The position numbers and the translations under genes were made by a program. This document shows, piece after piece, positions 2,699-39,895 of a stretch of 64,000 nt of DNA. The DNA comes from Bryobacterales bacterium (GTDB lineage Bacteria > Acidobacteriota > Terriglobia > Bryobacterales > UBA6623), in the NCBI GenBank assembly GCA_965242705.1, contig OZ251486.1, positions 3,151,806 to 3,215,805 on the forward strand, given 5' to 3'. Position 1 is the first letter of the stretch, and every line of letters starts with the position of its first letter. The notes under the pieces were generated by a model. The model saw only the letters and a program-made list of their open reading frames with translations. It did no database searches and was not told the origin of the DNA.

Positions 2699-4093
2699 AT
2701 GAGCGACCGCAAAGACCTGCTGCGCAGTCTGCCGTCGGTGGATGCGCTGCTCGAATCGGAAGCGGGCGCGGCCTGGCTGCGGGCGCTGCCGCGGGAGCGC
2801 GTTGCGGCCCTGGCGCGGGACGCGCTGGCCGAGGCGCGCGCCGCCATTCTTGCGGACAAGACGCCCGCCGCGCGCCCCGCCGCGGCCGCGGTCAAGGCCG
2901 GCGTCGAAGCGAAACTGGCCCGGCTGACGCGGCCTTCGCTGCGCCGCGTCATCAACGCTTCCGGGGTCATCCTGCATACCAATCTGGGGCGCGCGCCGCT
3001 CGCCGAGGCGGCCGTCGAGGCGATTCGCGAGACCGCGGCCGGATATTCCAATCTGGAGTACGACCTGGCCGCGGGCGGGCGCGGACGGCGCGACGTTCAC
3101 GCGGGCGGGTTGCTCGAGCAGTTGCTCGGCGCGCCGGCCGTCGTCGTCAACAACAACGCGGCGGCGGTCTTGCTGGTGTTGAACGAACTTTCGCGGGACG
3201 GCGAAACAATCGTTTCCCGCGGCGAGTCGATTGAGATCGGCGACGGCTTCCGCATTCCCCAAATCATCGAGCGCTCGGGCGCGGCGCTGCGCGAAGTCGG
3301 AACCGCAAATCGGACGCGAATCGACGACTACCGCGCCGCGGTCGGCGAGCGCAGCCGCGCGCTGCTGCGCGTTCACCCCAGCAACTTCCGGCAGATCGGC
3401 TTCACCGGCCGCCCCAGTCTGGTCGAGATGGCGGCGCTGGCGCGGGAAACGTCGCTGCCCCTGGTGGAAGATCTGGGCAGCGGCTGCCTCGACGACCTGC
3501 GCCCGCTCGGCATCGACGACGAGGCGCCGGTCGGCGCAAGCCTCGCAGCCGGCGCGGACGTAGTGACCTTTTCCGGCGACAAACTGCTGGGCGGCCCGCA
3601 GGCGGGCATTATCGCCGGCAAGCCGCAACTCGTCGAGCGCATCCGGCGCAACCCCCTGTTCCGCGCCTTGCGCGTCGATAAGCTGACCTACGCCGCGCTG
3701 GGGGCGACCTTGCAGGAATACATCCGCGGCAACCGGGAAAGCATCCCCGTCTTGCGCATGATGCATGCGCCGGCGGCCGCGCTGCGCGGGCGGGCCGCGC
3801 GTTTCGTTGCAAGACTCGACCGGCCGGGCGTCGCCGTCCGCGAGAGCGAATCGCTGCTCGGCGGCGGCTCGACGCCGCTGCGCGCGCTGCCTTCGCCGGT
3901 CATCGCGGTCGAGCCGGAGGCCGGCGGGTCGGCCCAGCGCGTCGAGCGGCGGCTGCGCGCCGGCGAGCCGCCGGTAGTCGCCCGCATCGAACAGGGCCGC
4001 CTGCTGCTCGACCTGCGCGCCGTCGCCGAAGCGGAGGAAGACGACCTGCTGCGGGCGCTCGAAGCCGCCCTGCGCGAAGAGCGCCGCGAATAA
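2699..4093 (+). CDS. selA: L-seryl-tRNA(Sec) selenium transferase
   Basis: ATG at 2699 inside track ORF 1022..4093. The protein begins MSDRKDLLRSLPSVDALL and contains VINASGVILHTNLGRAPL and the PLP-lysine motif FSGDKLLGGPQAGII, which are typical of SelA. Confidence 0.95.
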   Translation: MSDRKDLLRSLPSVDALLESEAGAAWLRALPRERVAALARDALAEARAAILADKTPAARPAAAAVKAGVEAKLARLTRPSLRRVINASGVILHTNLGRAPLAEAAVEAIRETAAGYSNLEYDLAAGGRGRRDVHAGGLLEQLLGAPAVVVNNNAAAVLLVLNELSRDGETIVSRGESIEIGDGFRIPQIIERSGAALREVGTANRTRIDDYRAAVGERSRALLRVHPSNFRQIGFTGRPSLVEMAALARETSLPLVEDLGSGCLDDLRPLGIDDEAPVGASLAAGADVVTFSGDKLLGGPQAGIIAGKPQLVERIRRNPLFRALRVDKLTYAALGATLQEYIRGNRESIPVLRMMHAPAAALRGRAARFVARLDRPGVAVRESESLLGGGSTPLRALPSPVIAVEPEAGGSAQRVERRLRAGEPPVVARIEQGRLLLDLRAVAEAEEDDLLRALEAALREERRE

Positions 4094-4140
4094 GTTACCT
4101 TCCCGCCGTGAAAAACGTCAAAACAGGATACTGCGCCTTT

Positions 4141-5385
4141 ATGCGAACCGGACTCCTTGCCCTGCAAGCGTCGCTCGCAATCTCGCTGCTCTCGACGCCG
4201 GCTCCGGCGGAAGAGGCGGTCGGTTGGATCACGTCTTACGAAGAAGCCCTGCAGGAGGCCCGGCGGACCGGAAAGCCCATCTTTCTCGAGTTCCGCTGCG
4301 CCCCTTGACGCGCCGGACGTGAATTCGACGCACAGGTTGTGCTGACCAAGGCAGGAACGAAACGCGGCGATTTGCTCAGGCAATACGTCCCCGCCCGCAT
4401 CGTGCGCATGGACGGGATCGATATCGGTCTGTTCGATTACGACCGCTACAACACGCTGTACTTTTTCATTCTCAACGCGGACGAGCATATCTACATGCGC
4501 TACGGAGGCCGCGACGCGCGCTCGCCGACAACCTACCTGAATCTGGAAAGCCTGGAGTTGGCGCTGGAGCAGGGACTCGATCTGCACCGCCTGTACCGCG
4601 CCGGAAAAATCGACCGCAAGCCCCGGCCCCCGGCGAAATATCCGCGGGACGTCCCCGAACTCCATAAGCGCACGACCGGCGCGGGGCGCTGCGTCGAGTG
4701 CCACCTGATCGGCGATCTCGAAAACGTGCAGCGGGAGCTCGACGGCGCCCTCGACAAGCTCTCGCAGATGTTCCGCTCGCCCGATATCCGCACGATCGGC
4801 ATCGAGCTCGACGTCCCCAGGGGGCTTGCCGCCGCGCAGGCGGCGAAGGCGGCGGCCGCGGCGGGAATGCAGGCCGGCGATACGATCACCCACCTCAACG
4901 GCAAGCGCGTATGGACGTTCGGCGACCTGCAATGGGAGTACGACCGCGTGAACCGCCGCGCCAAGACGATTCAACTTCGCGTCGAACGCGGCGGAAAGAG
5001 CGTCGATCTCGATATCGACCTGCCCGATTTCTGGTGGCTGACCGATATCGGCTACCGCAACTGGAGCGTCGATCCGCGGGTTTACTTCAACTCGGAGCCT
5101 TTGACCGCGGCGGAAAAAAGCGATCAGGGGTTCGACCCCGACGGGTTCGCCTGCCGCGTGACCCATATCGACCGCGTCGCCGAGTTGCTGGGCAATCACG
5201 AGCTCGCCGTCGGCGATATCGTTTACGCCGTGGACGGCAAGACGCGGGACGAAATCGCCAACACCGCGGAGCTTTTCCTGAAACTGCGCACGCAAGCCGG
5301 CAGCCGCCACGTTCTCCAGATCATGCGCAACGGCGAACGCCTGGAAACCCCGCTCAAGACCGATAGAATGAGCTTCAGAAAATGA
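4141..5385 (+). CDS. Predicted selenoprotein: secreted thioredoxin-fold (C-A-P-U) protein with PDZ-like domains, TGA 4306-4308 read as Sec
   Basis: Track ORFs 4108..4308 and 4339..5385 share one frame (231 nt apart). They are separated only by TGA 4306-4308 and 10 sense codons. The protein has a signal peptide (MRTGLLALQASLAISLLSTPAPA), then W..SYEEALQEARRTGKPIFLEFRCAP-[TGA]-RAGREFDAQV, then PDZ-like GMQAGDTITHLNGKRV and LAVGDIVYAVDGK. An alternative start is GTG 4108. selA ends 15 nt upstream of 4108. Confidence 0.65.
4330..4342 (+). promoter_or_regulatory. Candidate bacterial SECIS apical hairpin
   Basis: GCAC-AGGUU-GUGC, a 4-bp stem with a GGUU-containing loop, begins 22 nt after the TGA at 4306-4308. 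The stem is short and I could not extend it convincingly by eye. Confidence 0.35.
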
Positions 5386-5930
5386 TGTTTTCTCTGCGCC
5401 TCCCGACCGTTTTGCTGGCTTTGGCCGCGCCGGTTTTCTGCGGCGAATGGACGCCGCAGGCGCATGCCGAGCGGAACGGCCGCGCGCTGGCCTCGTACCG
5501 CGCCAAACTCGACGGCGAGTATCTGGTCGTCGAGGTCAAGACCGCCGAGGGATGGCACACCTACGCGATGGACAACAAGCAGCGCGCCCGAGAGGCGCTC
5601 GCCGGAAAAATGTCGCTGGGCGTCGAGGAAAATACGCGGGTGACCGTTTCGCAGGGGTTGGAGGTAAGCGGGCCGTGGCGTCAGTCGGAACCCAAAGACT
5701 TTTCGCAGCCCGATCTGCGCTGGTTCACCTGGGGTTTCGACGCTCCGGCCCTGCTGGCCGCCAAGGTCAGGCGCACCGGGGCCGGCCCGGCGTTGGTGGC
5801 CGTCCGCGCGCAAATCTGCGACAGCGTAAGCTGCCAGGCGGTCGATACCGAACTGGAACTGCCCTTCCCCGCGGAGGTCGGCAAGACCGAACTGGACATC
5901 GGCGCGCTGACCAAGGTGCGCGCGGACTGA
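5382..5930 (+). CDS. DsbD N-terminal-like / DsbC-corrector-like (PF11412-type) periplasmic thiol-disulfide protein
   Basis: Has a signal peptide, a GWHTYA motif and a late paired-Cys motif QICDSVSCQ, the layout I associate with the DsbD-N-like family. Its start overlaps the previous stop (ATGATG/TGA at 5382-5385). Confidence 0.7.
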   Translation: MMFSLRLPTVLLALAAPVFCGEWTPQAHAERNGRALASYRAKLDGEYLVVEVKTAEGWHTYAMDNKQRAREALAGKMSLGVEENTRVTVSQGLEVSGPWRQSEPKDFSQPDLRWFTWGFDAPALLAAKVRRTGAGPALVAVRAQICDSVSCQAVDTELELPFPAEVGKTELDIGALTKVRAD

Positions 5931-19375: not shown

Positions 19376-21394
19376 ATGGAAAATCTCGGATACCTTGCGG
19401 TCTTGCTCGGCTTCCTCGTATCCGTCTATGCGGTCGTTGCCGCGCTGGCCGGCCGGCTGCGCAACAATGCGTTTCTGGAAGTCAGCGCGCAGCGGGCGGT
19501 GCTGAGCGCCTGGCTGCTGGTCACGGCTGCTTCCGGCATTCTGCTCCACGCCATCCTGACGGACGACTTCCGGCTCAGCTACGTCGCCTCGCGGTCGAAC
19601 GCCGACCTCGACCTGATCTACAAATTCGCCGCGTGGTGGGGCGGCCAGGAAGGTTCGCTGCTTTTCTGGAGCTGGATCGCGGCCACCTATACGTTCGTCG
19701 CGGTGCATACGGGGCGCAAGCGCCACCGCAGCATGATTTCGTACGTCACGGCAATCATGGCCGCGACGCAGGCTTTCTTTCTGGGGCTCGTCGCCTTCGA
19801 GGCGAATCCGTTTGCGGTCATCATGTCCGGCCCGCAGATTACGGCCATGCCCGACGGCAACGGATTGAATCCGCTGCTGCAGCACCCCATGATGGCCATC
19901 CATCCGCCGATGCTCTATCTGGGTTACGTCGGCTTCACGGTGCCCTTCGCCTTCGCCATGGCCTCGCTGATTACCCGCCAGCCGGGCGAGCGCTGGATTC
20001 ACACCACGCGCGTCTGGACGATGATCACCTGGCTGTTCCAGGGCATCGGCATCCTGCTCGGCGCGCGCTGGGCCTACGTCGTGCTCGGCTGGGGCGGCTA
20101 TTGGGGCTGGGACCCGGTGGAAAACGCCTCGTTGCTGCCCTGGATCACCGGAACCGCCTTTCTCCATTCGGTGATGATGCAGGAAAAGAAGGGCATGATG
20201 AAGGTCTGGAACATCGTGCTGATTTCGGCGACGTTCTTCCTCTGCATTTTCGGCACGATGATGACCCGGGGCGGGTTGGTCAGTTCCGTCCACGCTTTCG
20301 CCGAATCGGAGATCGGCATCTATTTCGTCTGGTATCTGCTGCTCGGCGTAGGCGTCACGGCGTACCTGATCCTGAGCCGCCTCGATTACCTGAAGAGCGA
20401 GGCCGAGCTCGAGTCGGTCGTCTCCCGCGAGTCGAGCTTCCTGTTCAACAACGTGATTCTGCTGGCAAGCTGCTTTGCCGTGCTGTGGGGTACGCTGTTC
20501 CCGGTCATCAGCGAATACGTTTCCGGCGACAAGATCACGGTCGGCGCGCCGTTTTTCAACAAGGTCAACGTCCCCATCGGGCTGTTCCTGCTGTTCCTGA
20601 CGGGCGTCGGACCGCTGTTCGCCTGGCGGCGGACCTCGACGGAGTCGCTGCGGCGCAATTTCCAGTGGCCGGCGCTGGCCGCGGCGGCGCTGGGCGCGGC
20701 GCTGTTCGCCGCCGGCGTGCGCCATTTCTACGCGCTGGTCTGCTTCACGCTATGCGCCTTCGTGGCGATTACCATCGTGATCGAGTTTTACCGCGGCGCC
20801 CGCGTGATTCAGGCCAGGCACGGCTTGGCTTTCGCGCCCGCGGTAGTCGATCTCACCCACCGCAACACGCGGCGGTACGGCGGATATCTGGTGCATATGG
20901 CCATCGTGCTGATGTTCATCGGTTTCGCCGGGGCGGCGTTCAACCTCGTTCAGCAGCAGGAGATGGCGGTCGGCGACTCGTTGACGGTGGGCAATTACGA
21001 GTTCACCCTGACGGGGATTACGGAAGACGACAACGCCAACTACTACAGCGCCGTCGCCGGCGTCGATGTCGGCAAGAACGGCGAGTTCCTGCAAACGATG
21101 CATCCGGAGCGGCGCTTCTACCACGCCTCGGAACAGCCGACCAGCCGCGTCGATGTGCGCTACCGGCTGCGCGAAGACGTCTATGTCGTCTATGCCGGGC
21201 AGTCGAACGACGGGAAAAACCCGATCATTCAGGTCTATATCAATCCGCTCGTGAACTGGATATGGATCGGGGCGTTTCTGCTCGTGTTCGGCACCCTGGT
21301 GGCGCTCGTTCCCAACAAGGTCAGGCGGTACGCCCGCCCGCGAACCGCCGCGGCGGCGGTCGAGGAGAAGTCCATTGCGGCAACGAATGCCTAG
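19376..21394 (+). CDS. ccmF: Cytochrome c-type biogenesis protein CcmF (heme lyase component)
   Basis: 672-aa polytopic protein with the WWD motif region WGGYWGWDPVENASLLPW. Confidence 0.93.
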   Translation: MENLGYLAVLLGFLVSVYAVVAALAGRLRNNAFLEVSAQRAVLSAWLLVTAASGILLHAILTDDFRLSYVASRSNADLDLIYKFAAWWGGQEGSLLFWSWIAATYTFVAVHTGRKRHRSMISYVTAIMAATQAFFLGLVAFEANPFAVIMSGPQITAMPDGNGLNPLLQHPMMAIHPPMLYLGYVGFTVPFAFAMASLITRQPGERWIHTTRVWTMITWLFQGIGILLGARWAYVVLGWGGYWGWDPVENASLLPWITGTAFLHSVMMQEKKGMMKVWNIVLISATFFLCIFGTMMTRGGLVSSVHAFAESEIGIYFVWYLLLGVGVTAYLILSRLDYLKSEAELESVVSRESSFLFNNVILLASCFAVLWGTLFPVISEYVSGDKITVGAPFFNKVNVPIGLFLLFLTGVGPLFAWRRTSTESLRRNFQWPALAAAALGAALFAAGVRHFYALVCFTLCAFVAITIVIEFYRGARVIQARHGLAFAPAVVDLTHRNTRRYGGYLVHMAIVLMFIGFAGAAFNLVQQQEMAVGDSLTVGNYEFTLTGITEDDNANYYSAVAGVDVGKNGEFLQTMHPERRFYHASEQPTSRVDVRYRLREDVYVVYAGQSNDGKNPIIQVYINPLVNWIWIGAFLLVFGTLVALVPNKVRRYARPRTAAAAVEEKSIAATNA

Positions 21395-21848
21395 TCTGGC
21401 GGCGGCTTTGGCGCTGCTCGCGGCCCCGGCGGCCCTGGCCGATGAAATGTACCTCAAGGTGCGCGAGATTGGCGACCGCATCGAATGCACCTGCGGGTGT
21501 TCGTCAACCATCGCGACCTGCAACATGGTCGGCTGCCACGTTCGCGTGCCGATCAACGAAGAGATCCGCGCCGGCATCGAGGCCGGGCGGCCGCAAGAGG
21601 AAATCCTGGAAGCCGTTTACGAGAAGTACGGTCAGGAGATGCGCGTCGAGCCGCGGCGCGAGGGCTTCGGCGTCGTCGGCTGGGCCATGCCCTTCGTTTC
21701 GCTTCTGGCGGGACTGGCGGCGATTCCGTTCGTCGTCCGCCGCTGGCGCCGCAACGCGCGGGAGCAGGCCGCGGCGAAATCGACGCCCGCGCGGGTCGTT
21801 GAACGCTACAGCGAAGAGATCGAGCGGCAACTCGAGGAGATGGAGTAA
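21387..21848 (+). CDS. ccmH: CcmH/NrfF-like cytochrome c biogenesis thiol-redox protein
   Basis: Signal peptide, a Cys-rich motif IECTCGCSSTIATCNMVGC, and a C-terminal TM helix. It overlaps the ccmF stop. Confidence 0.7.
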   Translation: MPSLAAALALLAAPAALADEMYLKVREIGDRIECTCGCSSTIATCNMVGCHVRVPINEEIRAGIEAGRPQEEILEAVYEKYGQEMRVEPRREGFGVVGWAMPFVSLLAGLAAIPFVVRRWRRNAREQAAAKSTPARVVERYSEEIERQLEEME

Positions 21849-21893
21849 TCCCCCCAAGGGCCGGGGCATACGCCGCCGCCCGAGCGCACCGCC

Positions 21894-22172
21894 ATGCTCA
21901 TCGCCGCCGCCGTGATTTTGATCGCCGTCGCGTTCGCCCTGCCCTTGTTCGTGCGCCCCGGCGATATCCCCGAGGATGAGCCGGTTTCGCCCACGCAGCA
22001 TCTCGACGACCGCAAGGCGGCGATTTACGCCAATCTGCGCGACCTGCTCGGCGAGTTCCAGATGGGCAAGATGTCCGCGGCCGACTACCGCGAGAGCAAG
22101 GCGGAATTGCAGAAGGAATTGGCCGGCGTGCTGGCGCGGATCGATGAGATCGGGAGGCGCGGGAATGCTTGA
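21894..22172 (+). CDS. Small membrane protein, possibly a CcmI N-terminal-like module
   Basis: 92 aa with one N-terminal TM helix (MLIAAAVILIAVAFALPLF) followed by a charged helix. The call rests on its position inside the ccm cluster and is weak. Confidence 0.45.
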   Translation: MLIAAAVILIAVAFALPLFVRPGDIPEDEPVSPTQHLDDRKAAIYANLRDLLGEFQMGKMSAADYRESKAELQKELAGVLARIDEIGRRGNA

Positions 22173-23253
22173 ATCCGCGCCGCGCCGCGGCCGCCGCCGG
22201 GGAAGACGGCCGGCGGCTCTGCTGCTGTCGGCGGCGGGTTTCCTCTGGGCGGGCGTTGCGGGCGCCGCCGTCAAGGGGACGCTGCGCAACGGAACCACCG
22301 GCGAGCCGGCCGCCGGCGCGCTGCTGACCCTCTCGACCTTCCAGCGCGGGATGCGCCCCATCGACGAAGCGGTCAGCGGGGCCGACGGCAAGTTCGAGTT
22401 CGCCAAAGAGCTTCCGCAGACGCCCGAGGAGCAGCCTTTCCTTGGCGCGGTCCGCGCCGAATTCGAGGCCGTCGGCTACACCGAGTTGATCCGCCGAGAG
22501 ACCGACCGCGAAAACCTCGACATCGTCGTGTACTCGGCCGCCGGAGAAAACCTGCCCGCGCCCGACGGCCGGATCGTCATCCTCGAGCCGGGTGAGAGCG
22601 AGATCGTGATCAACGAAAGCTATCAGTTTTTCAACGTCTCCGATCCGCCGGTGACCTACAGCAGCGGAGAGGGAACGCTGCGCTTTTTCCTGCCGCCCGA
22701 AGCCAAGGGCATCGTGCAGGTGTCCGGAACCGGGCCTGCCGGCATGCCCTTGCCCAGCACGGGGCAGCCTTCGGGGGAAGAGAACATCTACAAGGTGGAT
22801 TTTCCGCTGAAGCCCGGCGAGAACCGCGTGGACGTAATCTATCTGGTTCCCCGCGCGGACGACGCGCTGGAACTGCGCGCGCTTTACCGCGGCGTGCCGA
22901 CGCGCATTGCCGCGCCGGACGGCGTCGAAGTTGCAGGGGAGGGGCTGAAGCCCCTGGGGCGGGAGCCCGGCACGCAGGCGGCCATCTACGAAGCGCCCGA
23001 CGAGTCGCAGACAAGCCTGCGGGTGACCGGATCGGGCAGCCTGCGCCGCTCGGCGGGAGAGGCGGCGGGCGGCGGGGGCGGCGGCGAAATCGCGGTTCGG
23101 ACGGCGCCGGTCGCGGACGAGCTTCCCTGGATTGTCGGCCTGACGGCGGCCGTCTTCGGCATCGGGTTCGTTTATCTGCTGACGGCCGTCGGCGCGGCGC
23201 GCCCGCCCCGAGCGGCGCCGTCCGCGCAAAAGAAGAAGCGGCGGAAGTCATGA
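22165..23253 (+). CDS. Secreted carboxypeptidase-regulatory-like domain protein with a C-terminal TM anchor
   Basis: ATG 22165 inside track ORF 21976..23253. It has a signal peptide, then VKGTLRNGTTGEPAAGALLTL..GADGKFEF (CarboxypepD_reg-like), then a C-terminal TM helix (WIVGLTAAVFGIGFVYLL) and a basic tail. Confidence 0.55.
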   Translation: MLESAPRRGRRRGRRPAALLLSAAGFLWAGVAGAAVKGTLRNGTTGEPAAGALLTLSTFQRGMRPIDEAVSGADGKFEFAKELPQTPEEQPFLGAVRAEFEAVGYTELIRRETDRENLDIVVYSAAGENLPAPDGRIVILEPGESEIVINESYQFFNVSDPPVTYSSGEGTLRFFLPPEAKGIVQVSGTGPAGMPLPSTGQPSGEENIYKVDFPLKPGENRVDVIYLVPRADDALELRALYRGVPTRIAAPDGVEVAGEGLKPLGREPGTQAAIYEAPDESQTSLRVTGSGSLRRSAGEAAGGGGGGEIAVRTAPVADELPWIVGLTAAVFGIGFVYLLTAVGAARPPRAAPSAQKKKRRKS

Positions 23254-23948
23254 AATCACCCGCGATTCTGGCGCGCGGCGTTACCAAGTATTTCGGCGAT
23301 TTCCCGGCGCTGCGGCGCGTCGATCTGGAAGTCGCGCCCGGGCGCGTCCTGGCGCTGTTGGGACGCAACGGCGCGGGGAAAACAACGTTCCTGCGCGTGC
23401 TGGCCGGCCTGACGCCGCCCACGGACGGCGAAATCGCCTTTCCCGCAGTCGGCGCGGATTCCGCTTCGCTGCGCCGGCATATCGGCGTCGTCGGCCACGG
23501 CCCGTGGATTTACGACGACCTGACGGCGGAAGAGAATCTGCGTTTTTTCGGCTCGCTGTATGAAGTTGAAGACGTCGAACGGAAACTCGCCGAATGGATC
23601 GACAAGGTCGGCCTGAGCCGCTTTCGGCGCTCGCGGGCGGGCGAATTTTCGCGCGGCATGCGGCAGCGCTTGGCCATCGCCCGGGCGTTCCTGCACGAGC
23701 CCGCGGTGCTGCTGCTCGATGAGCCGTGGACGGCGCTGGACGACCGCGCCATGCGGCTGCTCTCGTCGCTGGCCGCCGAGGCGCGCGGCCGGGGCCGAAC
23801 CGTCGTCATCTGCTCGCACCAGCTCAGCGAAGCCCTCGCTCTCGCCGACGAGGTCGCCCTGCTCGACCGCGGACGCATTGCCTTCCGCGGGCTGAACGAT
23901 GACGCTCTGCGCAGCGCCCCCGAGAGCCTGTACGAAAGGATGGCGTGA
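23250..23948 (+). CDS. ccmA: Heme exporter ABC ATPase CcmA
   Basis: Walker A LLGRNGAGKTT, signature FSRGMRQR, and Walker B LLLDEP. It directly precedes ccmB with overlapping stop/start. Confidence 0.85.
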   Translation: MKSPAILARGVTKYFGDFPALRRVDLEVAPGRVLALLGRNGAGKTTFLRVLAGLTPPTDGEIAFPAVGADSASLRRHIGVVGHGPWIYDDLTAEENLRFFGSLYEVEDVERKLAEWIDKVGLSRFRRSRAGEFSRGMRQRLAIARAFLHEPAVLLLDEPWTALDDRAMRLLSSLAAEARGRGRTVVICSHQLSEALALADEVALLDRGRIAFRGLNDDALRSAPESLYERMA

Positions 23949-24631
23949 AACGCTTCGTCAACCAAGCCTGGACGATCGCGCGCAAAGACCTGCGCAGCGA
24001 GATGCGCAACCGCGAGGTGCTGAACGCCGCCCTTTCGTTCGCCCTGGCGGTGCTGCTGATGTTCAGTTTCGCCTTCGACCCGAACAGCGGCGCGGAGACG
24101 CGCAGCCTCGCCGGCGGCCTGCTCTGGATGGTCTATCTGTTCGCCGGCATGCTCGTGCTCAACCGCAGCTTCGCCCGCGAAAAAACCAACGAATGCCTGG
24201 AAGCGCTGGTCGCCTCGCCGGCTTCAGGCGATGCCGTCTTTCTGGGCAAGACTTTCGCCAACTGGGTGCTGATCCTCGCAGTCGAACTGATTTCCCTGCC
24301 GATCTTCGGCGTATTCTTCGATGTAAGCTGGACGCCGCATGCCGGGCCGCTGCTCGGCGTTTTCGCGCTGGGCGCCTGGGCGTTCGCCGCCGTGGGCGCG
24401 ACCTTCGGGGCGGTCACCGCCAACAACCGGCTGCGCGAATTGATGCTGCCCTTGCTGCTGTTTCCGATCTGTCTGCCCGCGCTCATTGCCTGCGTCAGCC
24501 TGACTTGGGGCATTTTCCAGCCCGAAGCGGTGGCCGAGCTCGGTGCCTGGGTGCGCCTGCTCGTCGGTTTCGACGTGATCTACAGCTTGTTGGGAATCCT
24601 GCTGCTCGACTACGTTCTGACCGCAGGATAG
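23945..24631 (+). CDS. ccmB: Heme exporter membrane protein CcmB
   Basis: 228-aa, six-TM protein with the N-terminus ..IARKDLRSEMRNREVLNAALSFALAVLLMFSFAF typical of CcmB. Confidence 0.85.
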   Translation: MKRFVNQAWTIARKDLRSEMRNREVLNAALSFALAVLLMFSFAFDPNSGAETRSLAGGLLWMVYLFAGMLVLNRSFAREKTNECLEALVASPASGDAVFLGKTFANWVLILAVELISLPIFGVFFDVSWTPHAGPLLGVFALGAWAFAAVGATFGAVTANNRLRELMLPLLLFPICLPALIACVSLTWGIFQPEAVAELGAWVRLLVGFDVIYSLLGILLLDYVLTAG

Positions 24632-24664: not shown

Positions 24665-25294
24665 ATGCAAAAAAGAGTCGAAAACCACTTGGGAACCATG
24701 TCCGAAGTCGAGAAATCCACGCCTGAACCGGCCGACCCGACAGCCGTCGAAAATCCTGAGAAAGCCGCTGCGCGCAACGGCGCGGACGGCTCGGCGGAAG
24801 CCGAAGAATCGAGCGCCGCTGGCGAATCGCCCGAGCTGGAGCAGGTCAAGGCCGAGCGCGACCAAGCCGCCGGCGAAAGAGACGAGCTGCTCGACCGCTG
24901 CCGGCGCATGCAGGCCGAGTTCGAGAACACGCGCAAGCGCCTGCGCAGGGAAAAGGAAGAGGTCGTGCAGTACGCCGCTGCCGATACGATCGAATCCCTG
25001 CTGCCCATCATGGACGATTTCGAGAGGGCCATCGAAACGGAAGGCCTCGACCCGGAAATCAGAAAAGGGCTGGAGTTGATCCGCAAAAGGCTGCTCGATG
25101 CGCTGGCGCGGGCCGGGCTGCGCGAAATCGAGCAGCACGAGCGCTTCGACCCCCATTTGCACTACGCGCTTGACCGCGCCCCGGCCGAAGAGGGGCAGGA
25201 AGACCAGACGATCCTCGAGGTTTACCAGAAGGGCTACCGCTTCAAGGATCGCCTGCTGCGGGCGTCGATGGTCAAGGTAGCGGTCAAGGAATAG
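24665..25294 (+). CDS. grpE: Nucleotide exchange factor GrpE
   Basis: ..RCRRMQAEFENTRKRLRREKEE.., C-terminal ..VYQKGYRFKDRLLRASMVKV. Located upstream of dnaJ. Confidence 0.93.
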   Translation: MQKRVENHLGTMSEVEKSTPEPADPTAVENPEKAAARNGADGSAEAEESSAAGESPELEQVKAERDQAAGERDELLDRCRRMQAEFENTRKRLRREKEEVVQYAAADTIESLLPIMDDFERAIETEGLDPEIRKGLELIRKRLLDALARAGLREIEQHERFDPHLHYALDRAPAEEGQEDQTILEVYQKGYRFKDRLLRASMVKVAVKE

Positions 25295-25318: not shown

Positions 25319-26422
25319 ATGGTGGCGAAACGCGATTACTACGAAGTGCTGGGCGTCGGCCGCGATTGCAGCGCGCAGGAGTTGAAAAGCGCCTACCGCA
25401 AGCTGGCCATGCAATACCACCCGGACCGCAACCCGGGTTCCAAAGACGCCGAAGAGAAATTCAAGGAAGCCTCCGAGGCCTACAGCGTGCTGAGCGACGC
25501 CGACAAGCGCGCCCGCTACGACCGTTTCGGACACGACGGCCTTGCCGGCGGCGGGTTTCAGCCCGGCGATTTCTCAGATTTTTCCGAAGTCTTCGGCGAT
25601 CTCTTCAGCGACTTTTTCGGCGGCGGGCGGCGGCAGCGCAACCGTCCGCGGCGCGGCTCTGACCTGCAGTACGAGCTCGAAATCGACTTCGAGGACGCGG
25701 TTTTCGGCTTCAGCACCGACATTCAGTTCCCGCGCACGGAGGCTTGCGGGCGCTGCTCCGGGGCGGGCGCCGAACCGGGCTCGGGCCGTGCGGCCTGCGG
25801 CGCGTGCGGCGGCCGCGGCCAGGTTTACTACCAGCAGGGGTTCTTTTCGGTGGGTCGGACCTGTTCCGCCTGTCAGGGGGCGGGGCAGGTCATTCGCAAC
25901 CCCTGCAAAAGCTGCAACGGCGCCGGCTCGCAGAGGAAAGAGCGCAAGCTGAAGGTCAACATCCCGCCGGGCGTTGACCACGGCGCGCGCCTGCGGCTGA
26001 GCGGCGAAGGAGAGTCCGGCCCGAACGGCGGCCCCAAGGGCGACCTGTACGTCCTGGTTCACGTGCGCGAGCACGAAGTTTTTCACCGCGAGAAGTACGA
26101 CCTGCATTGCCGGGTTCCGATCAACGTGGCGCAAGCGGCGCTGGGAGCGGAAATCGAGGCGCCTACGCTCGAAGGCGGCGAGCCGCTCAAGATCCGTCCG
26201 GGCACGGAGCCGGGGGCGCGCTACAAGCTGCGCGGGAAAGGCGTGCCGCACCTCAACAGCGGACGGCGGGGCGACCTCTACGTTCACGCGGCGGTCAGCA
26301 TCCCCAAGAAGCTCACCGCCGAGCAGCGCAAGCTGTTCGAAAAACTCGGCGAATCGCTGCCCGCGGAGAACGCGCCCGCTGACAAGAGCTTCTTCGACAA
26401 GCTGCGCGATTACTTCGAGTGA
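25319..26422 (+). CDS. dnaJ: Molecular chaperone DnaJ
   Basis: J domain ([22 protein letters not shown]), a G/F region, and four CxxCxG zinc-finger repeats. Confidence 0.97.
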
Positions 26423-27447: not shown

Positions 27448-28236
27448 TTACAGCGTCCGCGCCATCCAGCGCACCTCGCCGACCACCGCGGCGTCGGCGG
27501 GCCACGGCGCGGACGGCCAAGCGGGATGATCGCTGACCATCAGCAGACCGCCGTCGTCGGCACTACCCGCCCGCTTGACGACCAGGCCGTCGCCTGAGCG
27601 GATAGCATAGATGCGCCCGCCGCTCGGTTGACGCCGGCTGTGATCCACCAGGATCGAGCAGCCCTGGGGCAAAGTCGGCTCCATCGACTCGCCGGTTACT
27701 TCGATCACGCTGCACTGGGCCGGGTCGAGCGCATGGCGCGCCAGCCAGTCCCGTCGGAAGCCCACGTAGCCCGCTACCGCCTCGTCCATGTCCGCCGCGC
27801 CGCCGCCCGCGGCGGCGGCCAACCCGCGCACGGCGACAAGCCGCGTCCCCGGAAATTCGACAGCTTCTTCCACCGCCGCCGGCTGCGCCGCCACCCCGGC
27901 GTCCTCGAGCGCGTTTGCCGGCGGCTGCGCGGACGCCGGCAGGCGCGAGAGTATTTCGCGCAGCAAGGCGTCGGTGCGGTCGGTTTGCGCGGGCGCATCG
28001 ACGGGGGCGCCGCTTTGCGGCGGGCCGACGTCGATCTCCAGGCCGAGAGCGGCGGCCGCGGCTTCGAGCGTCGAGCTCAGCGCCGCGCGCCCGTCGAGCA
28101 GTCCGCGAACCCTGCCCATCGGAATGCCGGTCCGCGCGGCAAACGGCCGCAGCCCTTCCGTCTCCACGCGCCGGCGCACCTCTTCGCGCAGCCGTTCGAT
28201 GCCCCGCCGCGGCCGGCGATTGAACGTTTGTGTCAT
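27448..28236 (-). CDS. Phage repressor, N-terminal DNA-binding region plus C-terminal S24 (LexA/CI-like) peptidase domain
   Basis: ATG at 28236 (MTQTFNRRPRRGIERLRE..). The C-terminus reads VTGESMEPTLPQGCSILVD...IYAIRSGDGLVVKR (Ser/Lys dyad context). It is divergent from the transposase operon. Confidence 0.8.
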   Translation of the reverse strand: MTQTFNRRPRRGIERLREEVRRRVETEGLRPFAARTGIPMGRVRGLLDGRAALSSTLEAAAAALGLEIDVGPPQSGAPVDAPAQTDRTDALLREILSRLPASAQPPANALEDAGVAAQPAAVEEAVEFPGTRLVAVRGLAAAAGGGAADMDEAVAGYVGFRRDWLARHALDPAQCSVIEVTGESMEPTLPQGCSILVDHSRRQPSGGRIYAIRSGDGLVVKRAGSADDGGLLMVSDHPAWPSAPWPADAAVVGEVRWMARTL

Positions 28237-28389
28237 GGTTGACACGATTGTAGCACACTGCGGCAGGCCGGCCGCCGCCGGAATTTTTGCAGCCGAAACG
28301 CTGCATTGCTTCCACTGAAGAGCTTCGGCATTGGGCAAGGCTGCCCCTTGTTGGCAAGCTTGCTGTGTTGCGAACAGTCCGATTGTGTT

Positions 28390-28602
28390 ATGTTTAACAC
28401 AGAGCGATGCCTGACCACGCTTTGCAAAATCTTCATCCGGCGCAAGCAGCGCAGTCTTGCCGCGATTGCCCGCCTGAAAGCCGCCCGCGGCGAAATCCTC
28501 GCGCGTCTGGAGCATGGCGGCGGCGCGCGGCTTGCCGACCGCGCCGCGAGCCCGCCCGCCGCCGCCCCGCGCCCGGAGCCTCCCGCGGAGAAGAGCGCAT
28601 GA
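28390..28602 (+). CDS. Small early ORF, possible Ner/Cro-position regulator
   Basis: 70-aa ORF (MFNTERCLTTLCKIFIRRKQRSLAAIARLKAARGEILARL..). Its stop overlaps the MuA ATG (ATGA). The call rests on position only, with no recognisable HTH. Confidence 0.3.
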   Translation: MFNTERCLTTLCKIFIRRKQRSLAAIARLKAARGEILARLEHGGGARLADRAASPPAAAPRPEPPAEKSA

Positions 28603-30593
28603 CTGCCGCGCAGGCCGGAAAGACTGCCGCGCAGCCGGAGGCCAAGCCGGAGCGCGGCGCCTTTGGCGTCAGGGAAATCGCCACAGCGATGCGGATCAGC
28701 AGGCAGGCCGTGCAGCAGCGCGCCGCGCGTCGGGGTTGGCCCTGGTTCGAGAGCGGCGCGCGCGGCGCGAAGCGCCGTTTGTACCGTTTCGCCGACCTTC
28801 CCGCCGACGTTCGCCAAGCGCTTTCCCGCTCCGACTCGGGCGATTCGAACCCATCCGCGGCATGCGGCGCGCAGCCGGAGGCCGGCTCGGCTTACGACCG
28901 GGAATCCCTGTGGAACTCCTATGCCCGCCGCCCGGACAAGGCCAAAGCCGAGGCGCATCGCCGCTGCGCGCTGCTGTTGCGGGTAGAGGCTCTGACGGAG
29001 GCCGGGCAGCCGTTGATTCAGGCGCTGCGCTCCGTTGCCGAGGCGGATGGGAAAACGAGTTGGCAGACGCTGCGCCGCTGGCGCTATGCCGCGCGCCCCT
29101 ACGCCCGCGCCGACTGGCTGCCCGCGCTGCTGCCCAACTACCGCGGCCGCGGCAAGGCGCCGCTCGACCCGCGCGTCTGGGACTACGTCCGCGCCGACTA
29201 TCTGCGGCCCGAGCGGCCTACTCTGGCGGCCTGCTACGACCGTCTGCTCGAAGCCGCCCGCAAGCACGGTTGGGCCGTGCCTTCGCTGCGCACCGTTGCG
29301 CGGCGCATCCACGACCTTCCGGTTGAAGAGCGCGTGCTGCTGCGCGAAGGCGAGCATGCCCTGTTGCGGCTCTATCCGGCGCAGCAGCGCAGCGTGCGCG
29401 GTCTGCGCGCGGGCGAGTGGGTATGCGGCGACGGCTACCGCCACAATGTTTTCGTGCGCGGCGGCGGCCGCGTTTTCCGTCCCGTCACCTGGATTTGGGC
29501 GGATGTGTATTCCCGGCGCATCCTGGCTTGGCGGACGGGCGAAACCGAGCACGGCGATCTGGTGCGGCTGGCTTTCGGCGATCTGATCGGCCGTTACGGC
29601 ATTCCTTCGGCGGCGGTCATCGACAACACCCGCGCCGCGGCCAACAAGTGGCTTACCGGCGGCGCCCCGATGCGCCGGCGCTGGCGGCCGCGCGAGGACG
29701 ACCCGCTCGGCCTGCTGCCCGCGATGGGCGTCGCCGTCCACTGGACCAGCGTCGAGGCCGGGCGCGGCTGGGGGCAGGCCAAGCCCGTCGAGCGCGCTTT
29801 CGGCGTCGGCGGACTGGGCGAGACGGTGGACCGGCACCCCCTGCTGGCCGGAGCCTACGCCGGAGCGTCCGCCGCCGCCAAGCCGGCGAATTACGGCGAA
29901 CGCGCGGTTTCGCAGAAGGATTTTCGCCGCGCTTTGGACGACGGCATCCGCGTCTGGAACGCGCGCCCCGGCCGGCGCACCGAGATTTGCGCCGGACTGC
30001 TCAGTTTCGATCGGGCCTGGCGGGAATCGTACCGTCCGGACGATGTTCGCCGCCCGACTGCCGAGCAGATGCGCATGTGCATGCTGGCTGCCGAGGATGC
30101 GCGCGTCGGCCGGAGCGGAACGATTGCGCTCTCCGCGGGCGCGGCCGCTGCGGGAGGCGGGCGCAACCGCTACGGCGCCGACTTTCTTTTGCAATATGCC
30201 GGGCGCCGGGTCGTGGTGCGCTACGACCCGGCGCGGCTGCACGACGAGGTTCACGTTTATACGCTCGACGGCCGCTATTTGTGCGCCGCCGAATGCATAC
30301 GGGCCGCAGGCTTCGGCGACGCGGACGCCGGACGCGAGCACACCCGGACCCGCCGCCGCAAGGCGCGCGCCGTGAAGGAAATCGCCTCTGCCGAACAGCG
30401 CCTCGGCGCCTTGGAAGCGGCGGCGATGCTGCCCGCGGGCGCGCCGCCGGCAATGCCGCCCGGCGTGATCGAAATGGATTTCGCCCGTCGCCCGCCGCGG
30501 TCTGCCGCGGCGGCGGCAGGGGAGGAAGAACGGGACTGGTCGGCCGCCGCGGACGACCTGATCCTGGCGATGGCCCGCGGAGCGGGACTGTGA
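28599..30593 (+). CDS. Mu-like DDE transposase (MuA family)
   Basis: ATG at 28599. The N-terminal Mu-type DNA-binding region reads REIATAMRISRQAVQQRAARRGWPW..YRFADLP. The rve-like core reads EWVCGDGYRHNVFV..WIWADVYSRRILAWR..VIDNTRAAANKW. Confidence 0.85.
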   Translation: MTAAQAGKTAAQPEAKPERGAFGVREIATAMRISRQAVQQRAARRGWPWFESGARGAKRRLYRFADLPADVRQALSRSDSGDSNPSAACGAQPEAGSAYDRESLWNSYARRPDKAKAEAHRRCALLLRVEALTEAGQPLIQALRSVAEADGKTSWQTLRRWRYAARPYARADWLPALLPNYRGRGKAPLDPRVWDYVRADYLRPERPTLAACYDRLLEAARKHGWAVPSLRTVARRIHDLPVEERVLLREGEHALLRLYPAQQRSVRGLRAGEWVCGDGYRHNVFVRGGGRVFRPVTWIWADVYSRRILAWRTGETEHGDLVRLAFGDLIGRYGIPSAAVIDNTRAAANKWLTGGAPMRRRWRPREDDPLGLLPAMGVAVHWTSVEAGRGWGQAKPVERAFGVGGLGETVDRHPLLAGAYAGASAAAKPANYGERAVSQKDFRRALDDGIRVWNARPGRRTEICAGLLSFDRAWRESYRPDDVRRPTAEQMRMCMLAAEDARVGRSGTIALSAGAAAAGGGRNRYGADFLLQYAGRRVVVRYDPARLHDEVHVYTLDGRYLCAAECIRAAGFGDADAGREHTRTRRRKARAVKEIASAEQRLGALEAAAMLPAGAPPAMPPGVIEMDFARRPPRSAAAAAGEEERDWSAAADDLILAMARGAGL

Positions 30594-30643
30594 CAACCGC
30601 GGCGCCAAACCCCTCGCGTGCGAGGGAGAGATAGGAGTACGGG

Positions 30644-30919
30644 ATGACTGCTTTCAATGCGCAGCCGACCGATTTGCACGGCGATTTTTATAACCGGGGC
30701 GCGCGGCTTGCCGCCCGCGGGGCGCGGCGAGACCGGCCGCGGACCTGGCCCTGGCTGATCGCCGGTCTGATGGCCGGTTACGTCTGGGGACTCGGCTCGC
30801 GGGCGGACATCGTCCGCGAGGACGGCTACAAGGAAGGCGCCGCGGCGGCCTGGGCGGCCTGCGAGTCGCGGCAGACCGCCGCGGTCGGCGGAGGCGCGGG
30901 AATGGGGGCGCGGCGGTGA
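30644..30919 (+). CDS. Hypothetical small membrane protein
   Basis: 91 aa with one TM helix (WPWLIAGLMAGYVWGL). It lies between MuA and MuB and its stop overlaps the MuB start. Confidence 0.4.
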   Translation: MTAFNAQPTDLHGDFYNRGARLAARGARRDRPRTWPWLIAGLMAGYVWGLGSRADIVREDGYKEGAAAAWAACESRQTAAVGGGAGMGARR

Positions 30920-31887
30920 CGGCAACCGACAGCAGCGGCTTGCGCGAGTACGCCCGCGCGGCTCTGGCCGACGACGGCCTTTCCCAGGCCCGCGCCGCGC
31001 AGCAGATTGGCGTATCGGATACAACGCTCAATCAATGGCTGGCGGGCAAGTATCCCGGGCGGACTGCGGCCGTCGAGGCCAAGGTTTCGCGTTGGCTGGA
31101 CGTCCGCGCCGAGCGGTCGACGCTGCCCGCGGCGCTGCCCGAAGCGCCGGCGTGGGTGGAGACGCCGACGGCAAGGCGCATCGCCGCCGCGCTGAGTTGG
31201 GCGCAAATGGCCGCCGACCTGACCGTGGTTTACGGCGGCGCGGGTATGGGCAAAACAGTCTCCGCCCGTTCGTACGCGGCGGGGCGCCCCAACGTCTGGA
31301 TCGCGGTCATGACCCCCGCCGCGCAGTCGCCGGCAGCGTGTCTCGAACGGACGGCGGAGGCTTGCGGCGCGCGGCCGGCGCGGGGCGCGCGGCCTTCCCG
31401 CGCCGCGCAAATTGAGGCCGACCTGATCGAGCGGCTGGAAGGTTCGCGCGGGCTGCTGATCGTCGATGAAGCGCAGCATCTCGGCATCCGCGCCCTGGAA
31501 GGGCTGCGCGGCATTCACGACGCCGCCGGCGTCGGGCTGGCGCTGCTGGGCAACGAAACGGTATATGCGCGCATGACCGGCGGCGCGCGTTCGGCCGAAT
31601 GCGCGCAGCTTTTCAGCCGCATCGGACGCCGGACGCGGCTGGCCCGCGTTGCGGCGGGCGACGTGGAAGCCCTGCTGGCCGCCTGGGGCATCGCGGATTG
31701 CGCGGCCTTGCGCGCCGCGGCGCTGGATATCGCCCGGAGTCCCGGAGCGCTGCGCGGCCTGACCAAAACCTTGCGGTTGGCGGCTCTGCTCGCCGCCGGC
31801 GCGGGCGCCGGCGGCGGAGACCGGGCGGCCGGCGGGATCGAGCTGCGCCATTTGCGCGCCGCAGTCAAAGATTTGACGGGAGTGTGA
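30916..31887 (+). CDS. MuB-like AAA+ DNA transposition ATPase
   Basis: N-terminal HTH (LSQARAAQQIGVSDTTLNQWLAGKY), Walker A (VVYGGAGMGKTV), and Walker B (LLIVDEAQHL). Confidence 0.8.
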   Translation: MTATDSSGLREYARAALADDGLSQARAAQQIGVSDTTLNQWLAGKYPGRTAAVEAKVSRWLDVRAERSTLPAALPEAPAWVETPTARRIAAALSWAQMAADLTVVYGGAGMGKTVSARSYAAGRPNVWIAVMTPAAQSPAACLERTAEACGARPARGARPSRAAQIEADLIERLEGSRGLLIVDEAQHLGIRALEGLRGIHDAAGVGLALLGNETVYARMTGGARSAECAQLFSRIGRRTRLARVAAGDVEALLAAWGIADCAALRAAALDIARSPGALRGLTKTLRLAALLAAGAGAGGGDRAAGGIELRHLRAAVKDLTGV

Positions 31888-39706: not shown

Positions 39707-39895
39707 CCCACGGCGGCGGCGAACGAACCCCCAGTTTAGAACGCGCGCGGCGGCGGGGCCTTGGCGGCAAAGTTCGAGCGTGCGGCGAAAACCGAAACCG
39801 AATCGAACCGTCGAGCGTACAAGGATTCGGTGATCGCCGTGAGATACCGCAAAGTTTTTCCTCGTTTTCTTTTGCCCCGCGGGAACGCGGCTCGA

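What the first reader, a model, noticed from the sequence alone, without database searches (positions are those of the whole stretch)
4108..5385. In-frame TGA at the second position of a thioredoxin-fold CxxC motif: predicted CxxU selenoprotein next to selA
The ORF track splits this locus into 4108..4308 and 4339..5385. Both pieces are in one frame (231 nt = 77 codons apart). Between them lie only TGA 4306-4308 and 10 sense codons (RAGREFDAQV), with no further stop. The upstream piece ends ...GKPIFLEFRCAP-TGA, which is where a thioredoxin-like fold would carry the resolving Cys, so the motif becomes C-A-P-U. The downstream piece 'starts' at an internal GTG with no SD and lacks a signal peptide, whereas the upstream piece has one. 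selA, which is needed only for Sec synthesis, ends 15 nt upstream. An annotation pipeline would miss this gene or truncate it.
Basis: partly seen in the sequence, partly recalled or inferred. Interest (0 to 1): 0.8.

Follow-up and report, generated by a model that had tools for sequence, protein, structure and literature searches.

The report
Known Trx7/PDZ selenoprotein gene, correctly spotted
The in-frame TGA at 4306-4308 very probably encodes selenocysteine in an exported thioredoxin-like/PDZ protein, but this selenoprotein family was predicted in 2008 and has a curated NCBI model, so the gene is an ordinary, usually mis-annotated member of a known family.

Summary
One reading frame runs from ATG 4141 to the stop at 5385, with a single in-frame TGA at 4306-4308 in the motif FLEFR-C-A-P-TGA.

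- **Conservation.** All 80 related loci, species representatives mostly labelled Bryobacterales, carry TGA at the same codon. The protein sequence is conserved on both sides of it.
- **Cys homologues.** More distant homologues have Cys at this position (FRC[AV]PC).
- **SECIS.** The 18 nt GACGCACAGGUUGUGCUG, starting 22 nt from the U of UGA, are almost invariant even at synonymous sites. They form a small hairpin with a GGU loop, as expected of a bacterial SECIS element.
- **Sec machinery.** selA lies directly upstream. A syntenic relative has a SelD fusion gene just beyond the window's left edge.
- **Already known.** The joined protein scores 416 bits (cutoff 300) against NCBIfam NF041199, "Trx7/PDZ domain-containing (seleno)protein". 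The same family is in the supplementary sequence file of Zhang and Gladyshev 2008 and in a 2026 review table.

Three extras were found:
- A DsbD-alpha-like gene with an invariant CxxxxC follows in 80 of 81 loci. It is fused to the protein in Verrucomicrobia.
- A CxxCH motif is kept in all 43 family sequences read.
- Gene callers truncate this gene almost everywhere.

The biochemical function is unknown. My best guess is a periplasmic selenosulfide/disulfide relay.

The parts
2699..4093 (+). selA, L-seryl-tRNA(Sec) selenium transferase, 464 aa
   Evidence: Pfam SelA 2.1e-124 and Se-cys_synth_N 5e-9. No terminator-like site lies between selA and the next gene.
4141..5385 (+). Trx7/PDZ selenoprotein coding sequence: 414 codons including Sec56, stop TGA at 5383-5385
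   Evidence: NCBIfam NF041199 scores 416.2 bits against a cutoff of 300, covering profile positions 2-389 of 390. Pfam gives Thioredoxin_7 and two PDZ_2 stretches. The ATG start is conserved in L001.
4141..4209 (+). Predicted Sec-type signal peptide (MRTGLLALQASLAISLLSTPAPA, with cleavage after APA inferred)
   Evidence: Read from the sequence. Hydrophobic N-termini are present in the homologues. No signal-peptide predictor was run.
4297..4308 (+). Redox motif Cys53-Ala-Pro-Sec56 (TGC GCC CCT TGA); the Sec codon is 4306-4308
   Evidence: TGA is present in 81 of 81 loci and the Cys in 81 of 81. Cys replaces Sec in the Cys-form homologues.
4327..4346 (+). SECIS-like hairpin. The core GCACA-GGU-UGUGC lies at 4330-4342. 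Three further outer pairs 4327-4329 / 4344-4346 flank a bulged U at 4343; the middle one is an A-A mismatch in this window.
   Evidence: Codon entropy is below 0.3 bit in only 5 of 198 conserved degenerate codon columns. All 5 lie in the six codons D-A-Q-V-V-L here, against a mean of 1.27 bit. 93% of cells in the hairpin are paired, with no covariation because the sequence is invariant. The core folds at -5.3 kcal/mol in the window and the extended hairpin at -9.4 to -10 in two of three relatives folded.
4222..4600 (+). Thioredoxin_7-type thioredoxin-like domain (approximate limits)
   Evidence: Pfam Thioredoxin_7 at 27.6 bits against a cutoff of 27, and 1e-10 to 1e-16 in distant Cys forms. 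In the AF2 model of homologue P0123, the N-terminal domain matches 3f9u (TMt 0.61) and AGR2 (TMt 0.63).
4690..4704 (+). CxxCH motif kept in every family sequence read (Cys184-Val-Glu-Cys187-His188)
   Evidence: Invariant in alignment A1 and at least 90% conserved in A3. It is kept as CxxCH in homologues of about 30% identity. No cytochrome profile matches it.
4840..5355 (+). Tandem PDZ domains (PDZ1 about 4840-5022, PDZ2 about 5128-5355; approximate)
   Evidence: Pfam PDZ_2 7e-15 with two stretches. The TIGR02037 DegP profile matches aa 234-401. Foldseek of the homologue model hits the DegP/DegQ/RseP PDZ tandems.
5382..5930 (+). Partner gene: exported DsbD-alpha-like protein of 182 aa with an invariant Cys146-x4-Cys151 (codons 5817-5819 and 5832-5834). 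Its ATG overlaps the selenoprotein stop (ATGA).
   Evidence: Weak Pfam DsbD_N hit, 6.6e-5. Present in 80 of 81 loci. Both Cys are invariant in 80 of 80. Fused to the C-terminus in Verrucomicrobial homologues. The fused domain matches the N. meningitidis DsbD N-terminal domain 6dps at TMt 0.63-0.67.

Best explanation
Window 4141-5385 is one gene for an exported selenoprotein of the known 'Trx7/PDZ domain-containing (seleno)protein' family (NCBIfam NF041199). In the 2008 GOS study the family was called 'putative secreted serine protease MucD'.

UGA 4306-4308 is decoded as selenocysteine with the help of a small SECIS hairpin at 4327-4346. This gives a Cys53-x-x-Sec56 redox centre where the thioredoxin-like domain carries its CxxC. 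These points are shown or strongly supported.

The rest is inferred. The gene is probably co-transcribed with selA. It is probably translationally coupled, through an ATGA overlap, to a DsbD-alpha-like partner protein that has an invariant CxxxxC. By analogy with the gamma-to-alpha step of DsbD, the selenosulfide centre would exchange electrons with the partner's disulfide in the periplasm. The two PDZ domains would hold substrate peptides. The invariant CxxCH would be either a third redox pair or a haem c attachment site. The physiological substrate and the electron source are unknown.
For: - One frame has a single TGA.
- TGA sits at the same codon in 81 of 81 loci, from 80 species-representative genomes mostly labelled Bryobacterales, with conserved protein on both sides.
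- Cys aligns with the TGA in the Cys forms.
- Extreme synonymous-site conservation is confined to the six codons that form the hairpin. The hairpin has a GGU loop 27 nt from the U of UGA.
- NF041199 scores 416 bits against a cutoff of 300.
- The family is listed with a CxxU motif in the 2026 review table. The identical motif ...KPIFLEFRCEPUTNGRTFDAQVVLSP... is in the 2008 GOS supplementary sequence file.
- selA is adjacent. An Ndh-SelD-type fusion sits in the syntenic relative.
- The partner gene follows in 80 of 81 loci, its two Cys are invariant, it is fused in Verrucomicrobia, and it has a DsbD-alpha fold.
Against: - There is no experimental evidence of selenium incorporation.
- selB and tRNA-Sec were not found in the window or in 60 related loci. 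The rest of the genome was not available.
- The hairpin core is thermodynamically unremarkable in this window (-5.3 kcal/mol, z -0.47). It shows no compensatory changes because it does not vary.
- selA adjacency holds in only 31 of 81 loci.
- The relay mechanism is by analogy only. No DsbD beta/CcdA membrane module was found among the called genes of four fully annotated neighbourhoods.
- No cytochrome profile matches the CxxCH region.
Confidence: 0.9

Rival explanations
1. TGA 4306 is a genuine stop. The locus would then encode a 55-aa exported peptide and a separate 348-aa PDZ protein starting at GTG 4339, which is how most databases annotate it.
For: All 120 best database hits are called as proteins of 325-359 aa. 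A 58-aa upstream ORF is called separately in L082. GTG 4339 exists.
Against: - The downstream piece would lack a signal peptide and the first strand and active site of its thioredoxin fold.
- The ten codons between TGA and GTG are conserved as protein (xAGRxFDAQV) in all loci.
- Full-length Cys forms are single proteins with Cys at that codon.
- The GTG is conserved as part of the hairpin.
- The curated equivalog model spans the TGA.
Confidence: 0.03
2. The TGA is a sequencing or assembly error, or this copy is a pseudogene of a Cys-form gene (TGC/TGT changed to TGA).
For: A single-base change from TGC or TGT would produce TGA. Cys forms do exist in other phyla.
Against: TGA is present in 80 independently assembled genomes and in the 2008 GOS read. 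There are no other stops or frameshifts. A SECIS-type constraint follows the codon.
Confidence: 0.01
3. UGA is read through without selenocysteine, for example by near-cognate tRNA-Trp or tRNA-Cys, or by a reassigned UGA. The conserved hairpin would act as a generic read-through stimulator.
For: selB and tRNA-Sec were not seen. The hairpin is short.
Against: - UGA is used as an ordinary stop in this window. This gene itself ends in TGA at 5383-5385.
- selA, which from general knowledge serves only Sec synthesis, is the adjacent gene, and a SelD fusion is nearby in the relative.
- The position is the redox-active Cys of a CxxC motif, the classic Sec/Cys exchange site.
- Selenoprotein specialists and NCBI curate the family as Sec-containing.
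Confidence: 0.04

Closest known systems
NCBIfam NF041199 'Trx7/PDZ domain-containing (seleno)protein', equal to 'Probable MucD, putative secreted serine proteinase' selenoprotein of Zhang and Gladyshev 2008 (PMC2398784), and listed in the 2026 review PMC13188914
   Same: Full-length equivalog match at 416 bits against a cutoff of 300. The CxxU motif and flanking sequence are the same: KPIFLEFRC-x-x-U-x-x-GR-x-FDAQVV. The RYGGRD and CVECHLIGD signatures match the GOS read. The architecture is also the same: signal peptide, Thioredoxin_7 domain, two PDZ domains.
   Different: Nothing essential; this is a member. Three points are not mentioned in the sources I could read: the obligatory DsbD-alpha-like partner gene or fusion, the invariant CxxCH, and the operon with selA in one Bryobacterales clade.
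DsbD (thiol:disulfide interchange protein), gamma (Thioredoxin_7) and alpha (DsbD_N) domains
   Same: The N-terminal domain is Thioredoxin_7-type with the redox motif directly after the first strand. The partner or fused C-terminal domain has the DsbD N-terminal fold with a Cys pair. A gamma-to-alpha electron-transfer step is the natural analogy; this comes from general knowledge of DsbD.
   Different: There is no transmembrane beta domain in the protein or among the called neighbouring genes. The domain order is reversed, with the Trx-like domain first and the alpha-like domain last. Two PDZ domains and a CxxCH lie in between. Sec replaces the second Cys. The Cys pair spacing is CxxxxC.
HtrA/DegP/DegQ/MucD periplasmic serine proteases (the name given to truncated homologues by JGI)
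   Same: A tandem of two PDZ domains with similar sequence and fold, and a periplasmic location.
   Different: There is no trypsin-like protease domain. 'Serine protease Do' and 'MucD' are misnomers caused by the PDZ domains.
NCBIfam NF045694 TsoB, rhodanese/DsbD fusion-like selenoprotein
   Same: Another DsbD-related selenoprotein. It gives a weak local match to the N-terminal 65 residues (E 0.003).
   Different: The score is 15.6 bits against a cutoff of 805. The architecture and the Sec motif (UxxxxU) are different. The window protein is not a member.

Membership tests
Bacterial selenoprotein gene (UGA decoded as Sec) | In-frame UGA with protein-level conservation on both sides | tested here: met
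   81 of 81 loci have TGA at the same codon, with conserved flanks KPIFLEFRCxx / xAGRxFDAQVV.
Bacterial selenoprotein gene (UGA decoded as Sec) | Homologues with Cys aligned to the UGA | tested here: met
   FRCVPC and FRCAPC in P0123, P0168, P0171, P0176, P0179, P0215 and P0271-P0291.
Bacterial selenoprotein gene (UGA decoded as Sec) | SECIS stem-loop shortly downstream of the UGA with G in the apical loop | tested here: met
   Hairpin GCACA-GGU-UGUGC with its loop starting 27 nt from the U of UGA. Synonymous sites are frozen only here. A covariation test is uninformative because the stem never varies. bSECISearch itself was not available.
Bacterial selenoprotein gene (UGA decoded as Sec) | Sec machinery in the genome (selA, selB, selC, selD) | tested here: inconclusive
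   selA is adjacent. A SelD fusion lies just outside the window in the syntenic relative L001. No selB or tRNA-Sec was found in the window or in 60 related loci. The whole genome was not available.
Bacterial selenoprotein gene (UGA decoded as Sec) | Selenium demonstrated in the protein | not testable with these tools
   Needs 75Se labelling or mass spectrometry.
NF041199 Trx7/PDZ domain-containing (seleno)protein | Score above the curated cutoff over the full profile | tested here: met
   416.2 bits against 300, profile positions 2-389 of 390.
NF041199 Trx7/PDZ domain-containing (seleno)protein | Thioredoxin_7 domain with a CxxU/CxxC motif followed by PDZ domains | tested here: met
   Pfam Thioredoxin_7 plus two PDZ_2 stretches. 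The CxxU motif matches the review table.
DsbD | Central transmembrane beta domain carrying a Cys pair | tested here: not met
   Pfam finds only Thioredoxin_7 and PDZ families, with no DsbD membrane-domain hit. Neighbouring called genes also lack it. No transmembrane predictor was run.
HtrA/DegP serine protease | Trypsin-like catalytic domain | tested here: not met
   Only the PDZ part of the DegP profiles matches, at 39.6 bits against a cutoff of 416. There is no protease domain in Pfam.
c-type cytochrome | CxxCH haem-binding motif in an exported protein | tested here: met
   C184-V-E-C187-H188 is kept in every family sequence read. ccm genes are present in the window.
c-type cytochrome | Recognisable cytochrome domain, or demonstrated covalent haem | tested here: not met
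   No cytochrome family matches the region even at E up to 1. Haem itself cannot be tested here.

The most novel reading that the evidence does not exclude
The Trx7/PDZ selenoprotein and its always-linked DsbD-alpha-like partner form a free-standing periplasmic redox relay. It would correspond to the gamma and alpha modules of DsbD without the membrane beta module. It would be built around a selenosulfide, and the invariant CxxCH would act as a third redox pair or as a haem c site that links thiol/selenol chemistry to one-electron carriers. That would be an undescribed type of extracytoplasmic redox pathway, found so far in Acidobacteriota and Verrucomicrobiota, with truncated homologues in MAGs labelled Planctomycetes and Hydrogenedentota.
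Probability: 0.25. Interest if true: 0.55.

Novelty: already known. Interest (0 to 1): 0.25.

Why it matters
**For annotation.** This is a clean example of a selenoprotein gene that generic gene callers split or truncate. All 120 closest database entries are truncated, and many start at the GTG that lies inside the SECIS hairpin. Re-annotating with NF041199 would fix hundreds of records.

**For biology.** The family is widespread in soil Acidobacteriota and still has no known function. Three observations give concrete hypotheses for a first biochemical study:
- the strict pairing or fusion with a DsbD-alpha-like protein;
- the invariant CxxCH;
- the operon with selA in one clade.

None of this changes the verdict that the selenoprotein itself is already known.

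Tried and rejected
- **Joined-protein submissions.** I searched with the downstream 358 aa instead and recognised Cys forms by where the match began. Expecting the same rule for structure prediction, I modelled the Cys-form homologue P0123 instead of the window protein.
- **Rfam.** It has no match at the site, either at gathering thresholds or at permissive E-values.
- **First fold.** The minimum-energy fold of 4290-4380 gave a different hairpin directly after the TGA. That hairpin is not conserved outside the closest clade, so I rejected it in favour of the invariant GCACA-GGU-UGUGC hairpin.
- **Lower SECIS stem.** A candidate lower stem (columns 7-10 with 60-63) shows no changes on both sides and is only 80% paired. 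It is not supported.
- **tRNA-Sec.** Not found in the window or in 60 related loci.
- **selB and selD.** Not found among the window ORFs that were scanned.
- **Haem idea.** No cytochrome profile matches the CxxCH region.
- **Conserved neighbours.** A search beyond the partner gene found none.
- **Promoters and terminators.** The scan showed nothing informative.

Full report
**1. The observation**

One frame carries a single internal stop, TGA 4306-4308. The sequence runs ...GKPIFLEFRCAP-TGA-RAGREFDAQV and then continues through GTG 4339 to the stop at 5383-5385. The ORF list shows the two pieces 4108..4308 and 4339..5385.

The likely start is ATG 4141, not GTG 4108. In the 83%-identical relative L001 the ATG and the MRTG... 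signal peptide are conserved. The stretch upstream of the ATG differs there and holds a TAA. The precursor is therefore 414 residues, with Cys53 and the TGA at codon 56.

I scanned both strands of the window for TGA codons flanked on both sides by coding-like composition. Only this site came back, plus two artefacts at the convergent gene ends near 5930.

**2. Conservation of the TGA**

A protein search with the joined sequence returned 120 best hits that are all 325-359 aa long and cover only 79-86% of the query. All of them are truncated at the same place.

Fetching DNA for 80 species-representative genomes gave a clear result. Most are labelled Bryobacterales MAGs, with amino-acid identity of 54-86%. 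Every locus has TGA at the identical codon, in the motif KPIFLEFRC-x-x-TGA-x-[AG]-G-R-x-FDAQVV. Upstream of it lie an in-frame conserved region and a hydrophobic N-terminus. Two separate genes, a pseudogene or an assembly error cannot explain this.

**3. Cys homologues**

The exhaustive representative search found full-length homologues of 391-606 aa whose match starts near residue 64-100. Most of these sequences carry Cys where the window has TGA:
- FRCVPCVNGREFDAKV
- FRCVPCEACKVFDGKV
- FRCAPCVNGREFDAQV

A few have lost the second Cys (P0180, P0188).

**4. The SECIS element**

In an ungapped alignment of the 75 nt from the TGA onward, the stretch GACGCACAGGTTGTGCTG (nt 22-39 from the U of UGA) is almost invariant in 81 sequences.

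A codon-level analysis makes the constraint explicit:
- Among 198 codon columns with a conserved degenerate amino acid, mean codon entropy is 1.27 bit.
- Only five columns are below 0.3 bit.
- All five lie in the six consecutive codons Asp-Ala-Gln-Val-Val-Leu: GAC 80/81, GCA 80/80, CAG 81/81, GTG 81/81, CTG 79/81. The sixth codon is GTT in 70 of 81.
- GCA and GTT are not the majority synonymous codons at the other conserved Ala and Val columns listed from this gene.

The stretch folds into GCACA-GGU-UGUGC. A bulged U and three further pairs are present in the Leu-Ser clade. The GGU loop starts 27 nt from the U of UGA.

From memory, this fits the published bacterial SECIS model: an apical loop 16-37 nt from the UGA with G in the loop. 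It also resembles the E. coli fdhF apical hairpin.

Three limits apply:
- In this window the core is only 5 bp (-5.3 kcal/mol, z -0.47).
- There is no covariation because the stem does not vary.
- Rfam has nothing at the site.

The GTG that gene callers use as the start of the 348-aa model is the invariant GTG inside this hairpin. That explains the uniform truncation in databases.

**5. Sec machinery**

The upstream gene, 2699-4093, is selA (Pfam SelA 2e-124). No terminator-like site separates it from the selenoprotein gene.

In the syntenic relative L001 the gene order is:
- a 755-aa Pyr_redox_2 + AIRS + AIRS_C protein, which is the Ndh-SelD fusion type discussed in the GOS paper;
- a 253-aa gene;
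- a TPR gene;
- selA;
- the selenoprotein;
- the 182-aa partner gene;
- a GFO/IDH/MocA oxidoreductase;
- pyrG.

By gene order and size, the window begins at the counterpart of the 253-aa gene, so selD would lie just off its left end.

Neither selB nor tRNA-Sec is in the window, and no tRNA-Sec is in 60 related loci. selA adjacency holds in 31 of 81 loci, the clade closest to the window.

**6. What the protein is**

- **Sequence profiles.** Pfam finds Thioredoxin_7 (aa 29-67, 27.6 bits against a cutoff of 27) and two PDZ_2 stretches. Distant Cys forms match Thioredoxin_7 at 1e-10 to 1e-16.
- **Structure model.** I built an AlphaFold2 model of the closest full-length Cys form, P0123. It is 46% identical to the window protein over 358 aa. 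The alignment included the window pieces. The model has mean pLDDT 91 and pTM 0.87.
- **Structure matches** (Foldseek against the PDB):
  - The PDZ tandem matches DegP, DegQ and RseP.
  - The N-terminal domain matches the Bacteroides exported Trx-like protein 3f9u (TMt 0.61) and AGR2 (TMt 0.63).
  - The C-terminal domain matches the Neisseria DsbD N-terminal domain 6dps (TMt 0.63-0.67).
- **Active site.** The CxxC of P0123 (Cys62, Cys65) follows the first strand (E56-60) directly and precedes a helix. That is where the thioredoxin fold has its active site.
- **No protease.** There is no protease domain, so the JGI names 'serine protease Do' are PDZ-driven misnomers.

**7. The partner**

The 182-aa gene at 5382-5930 overlaps the selenoprotein stop in ATGA.
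- It has a weak DsbD_N match.
- It follows the selenoprotein gene in 80 of 81 loci. The exception is a 1.5-kb contig.
- It has two invariant cysteines, Cys146-x4-Cys151, in 80 of 80 sequences.
- In Verrucomicrobia the same domain is fused to the C-terminus of Cys-form proteins of about 590 aa, and in a few Sec-type truncated entries of about 500-520 aa.

Outside this pair the neighbourhood is not conserved.

A CxxCH motif (Cys184-Val-Glu-Cys187-His188; nt 4690-4704) is kept in all 43 family sequences read, down to about 30% identity. No cytochrome profile matches it.

**8. Mechanism**

Shown or strongly supported: a single gene, UGA at a redox Cys position, a SECIS-type constraint, an exported Trx7 + PDZ + PDZ architecture, and an obligatory DsbD-alpha-like partner.

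Inferred by analogy with DsbD, where the gamma domain (Thioredoxin_7) reduces the alpha domain (DsbD_N): the Cys53/Sec56 selenosulfide exchanges with the partner's Cys146/Cys151 in the periplasm, and the PDZ tandem binds substrate peptides. The CxxCH may be a third redox pair or a haem c site. A ccm gene cluster lies 13 kb away in the window, but that may be coincidence. The electron source is unknown, and no DsbD beta/CcdA module is linked.

**9. Comparison with what is known**

- NCBIfam NF041199 'Trx7/PDZ domain-containing (seleno)protein', an equivalog model, matches at 416.2 bits against a cutoff of 300, over profile positions 2-389 of 390.
- NCBI already gives this name to homologues in Rubritalea, Luteolibacter and several MAGs.
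[quoted passage not shown] Its sequence reads ...ETGKPIFLEFRCEPUTNGRTFDAQVVLSP...RYGGRD...CVECHLIGDY, which is unmistakably the same family.
- I found no functional study in the held library.

**10. Verdict**

Novelty is 'already known'. The partner or fusion, the CxxCH and the frozen SECIS are useful details. They may not have been written up, but they do not change the category. Interest is 0.25.

Noticed in passing
window 5382-5930 (+): An exported DsbD-alpha-like protein of 182 aa with an invariant Cys146-x4-Cys151. It overlaps the selenoprotein stop (ATGA). It follows the selenoprotein gene in 80 of 81 loci and is fused to it in Verrucomicrobial Cys forms of about 590 aa.
   Followed up: yes
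window 4690-4704 (+): A CxxCH motif (CVECH) inside the selenoprotein, kept in every family sequence read down to about 30% identity. It could be a haem c site or a third redox pair. No cytochrome profile matches it.
   Followed up: partly
window 4303-4305 (+): The codon before the TGA is CCT in 52 of 54 loci that have Pro there. A T precedes the TGA in nearly all loci, which suggests a constraint on the 5' context of the Sec codon.
   Followed up: no
window 18802-24631 (+): A cytochrome c maturation (system I) cluster: ccmE 18802-19275, ccmF 19361-21394, ccmH 21255-21848, an unassigned 425-aa ORF 21976-23253, a probable ccmA 23250-23948 and ccmB 23945-24631. grpE (24665-25294) and dnaJ (25319-26422) follow.
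   Followed up: partly
window about 27448-31887: Genes of a Mu-like transposable element or prophage: an S24 peptidase/repressor-like gene 27448-28515 (-), a MuA-type DDE transposase 28407-30593 (+) and a MuB-like AAA protein 30916-31887 (+). The ends of the element were not mapped.
   Followed up: no
L001 3618-5885 (-), just left of the region syntenic with the window start: A 755-aa fusion of Pyr_redox_2 with AIRS and AIRS_C, which is an Ndh-SelD-type selenophosphate synthetase fusion. It lies about 4 kb upstream of selA in the 83%-identical relative. The equivalent gene would lie just outside the window.
   Followed up: partly
L084 6175-7008 and protein P0297 (774 aa): In Rubritalea an EF-hand protein gene overlaps the start of the Trx7/PDZ fusion gene. 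One homologue, P0297, has EF-hand domains fused. This may indicate a calcium link, and it remains unexplained.
   Followed up: no
L062, L074, L081: Three MAGs labelled Acidimicrobiia carry Bryobacterales-like copies of the gene pair at 57-58% identity, like the Bryobacteraceae loci. Mis-binning or mislabelling is likely.
   Followed up: no
window 10805-14263 (+) and 39761-42010 (+): Two large NHL/beta-propeller repeat proteins of 1152 and 749 aa lie in the same window.
   Followed up: no
window 56871-60290 (+): A single 1139-aa ORF fuses biotin carboxylase, a biotinyl domain and a carboxyltransferase, making a one-polypeptide acyl-CoA carboxylase.
   Followed up: no
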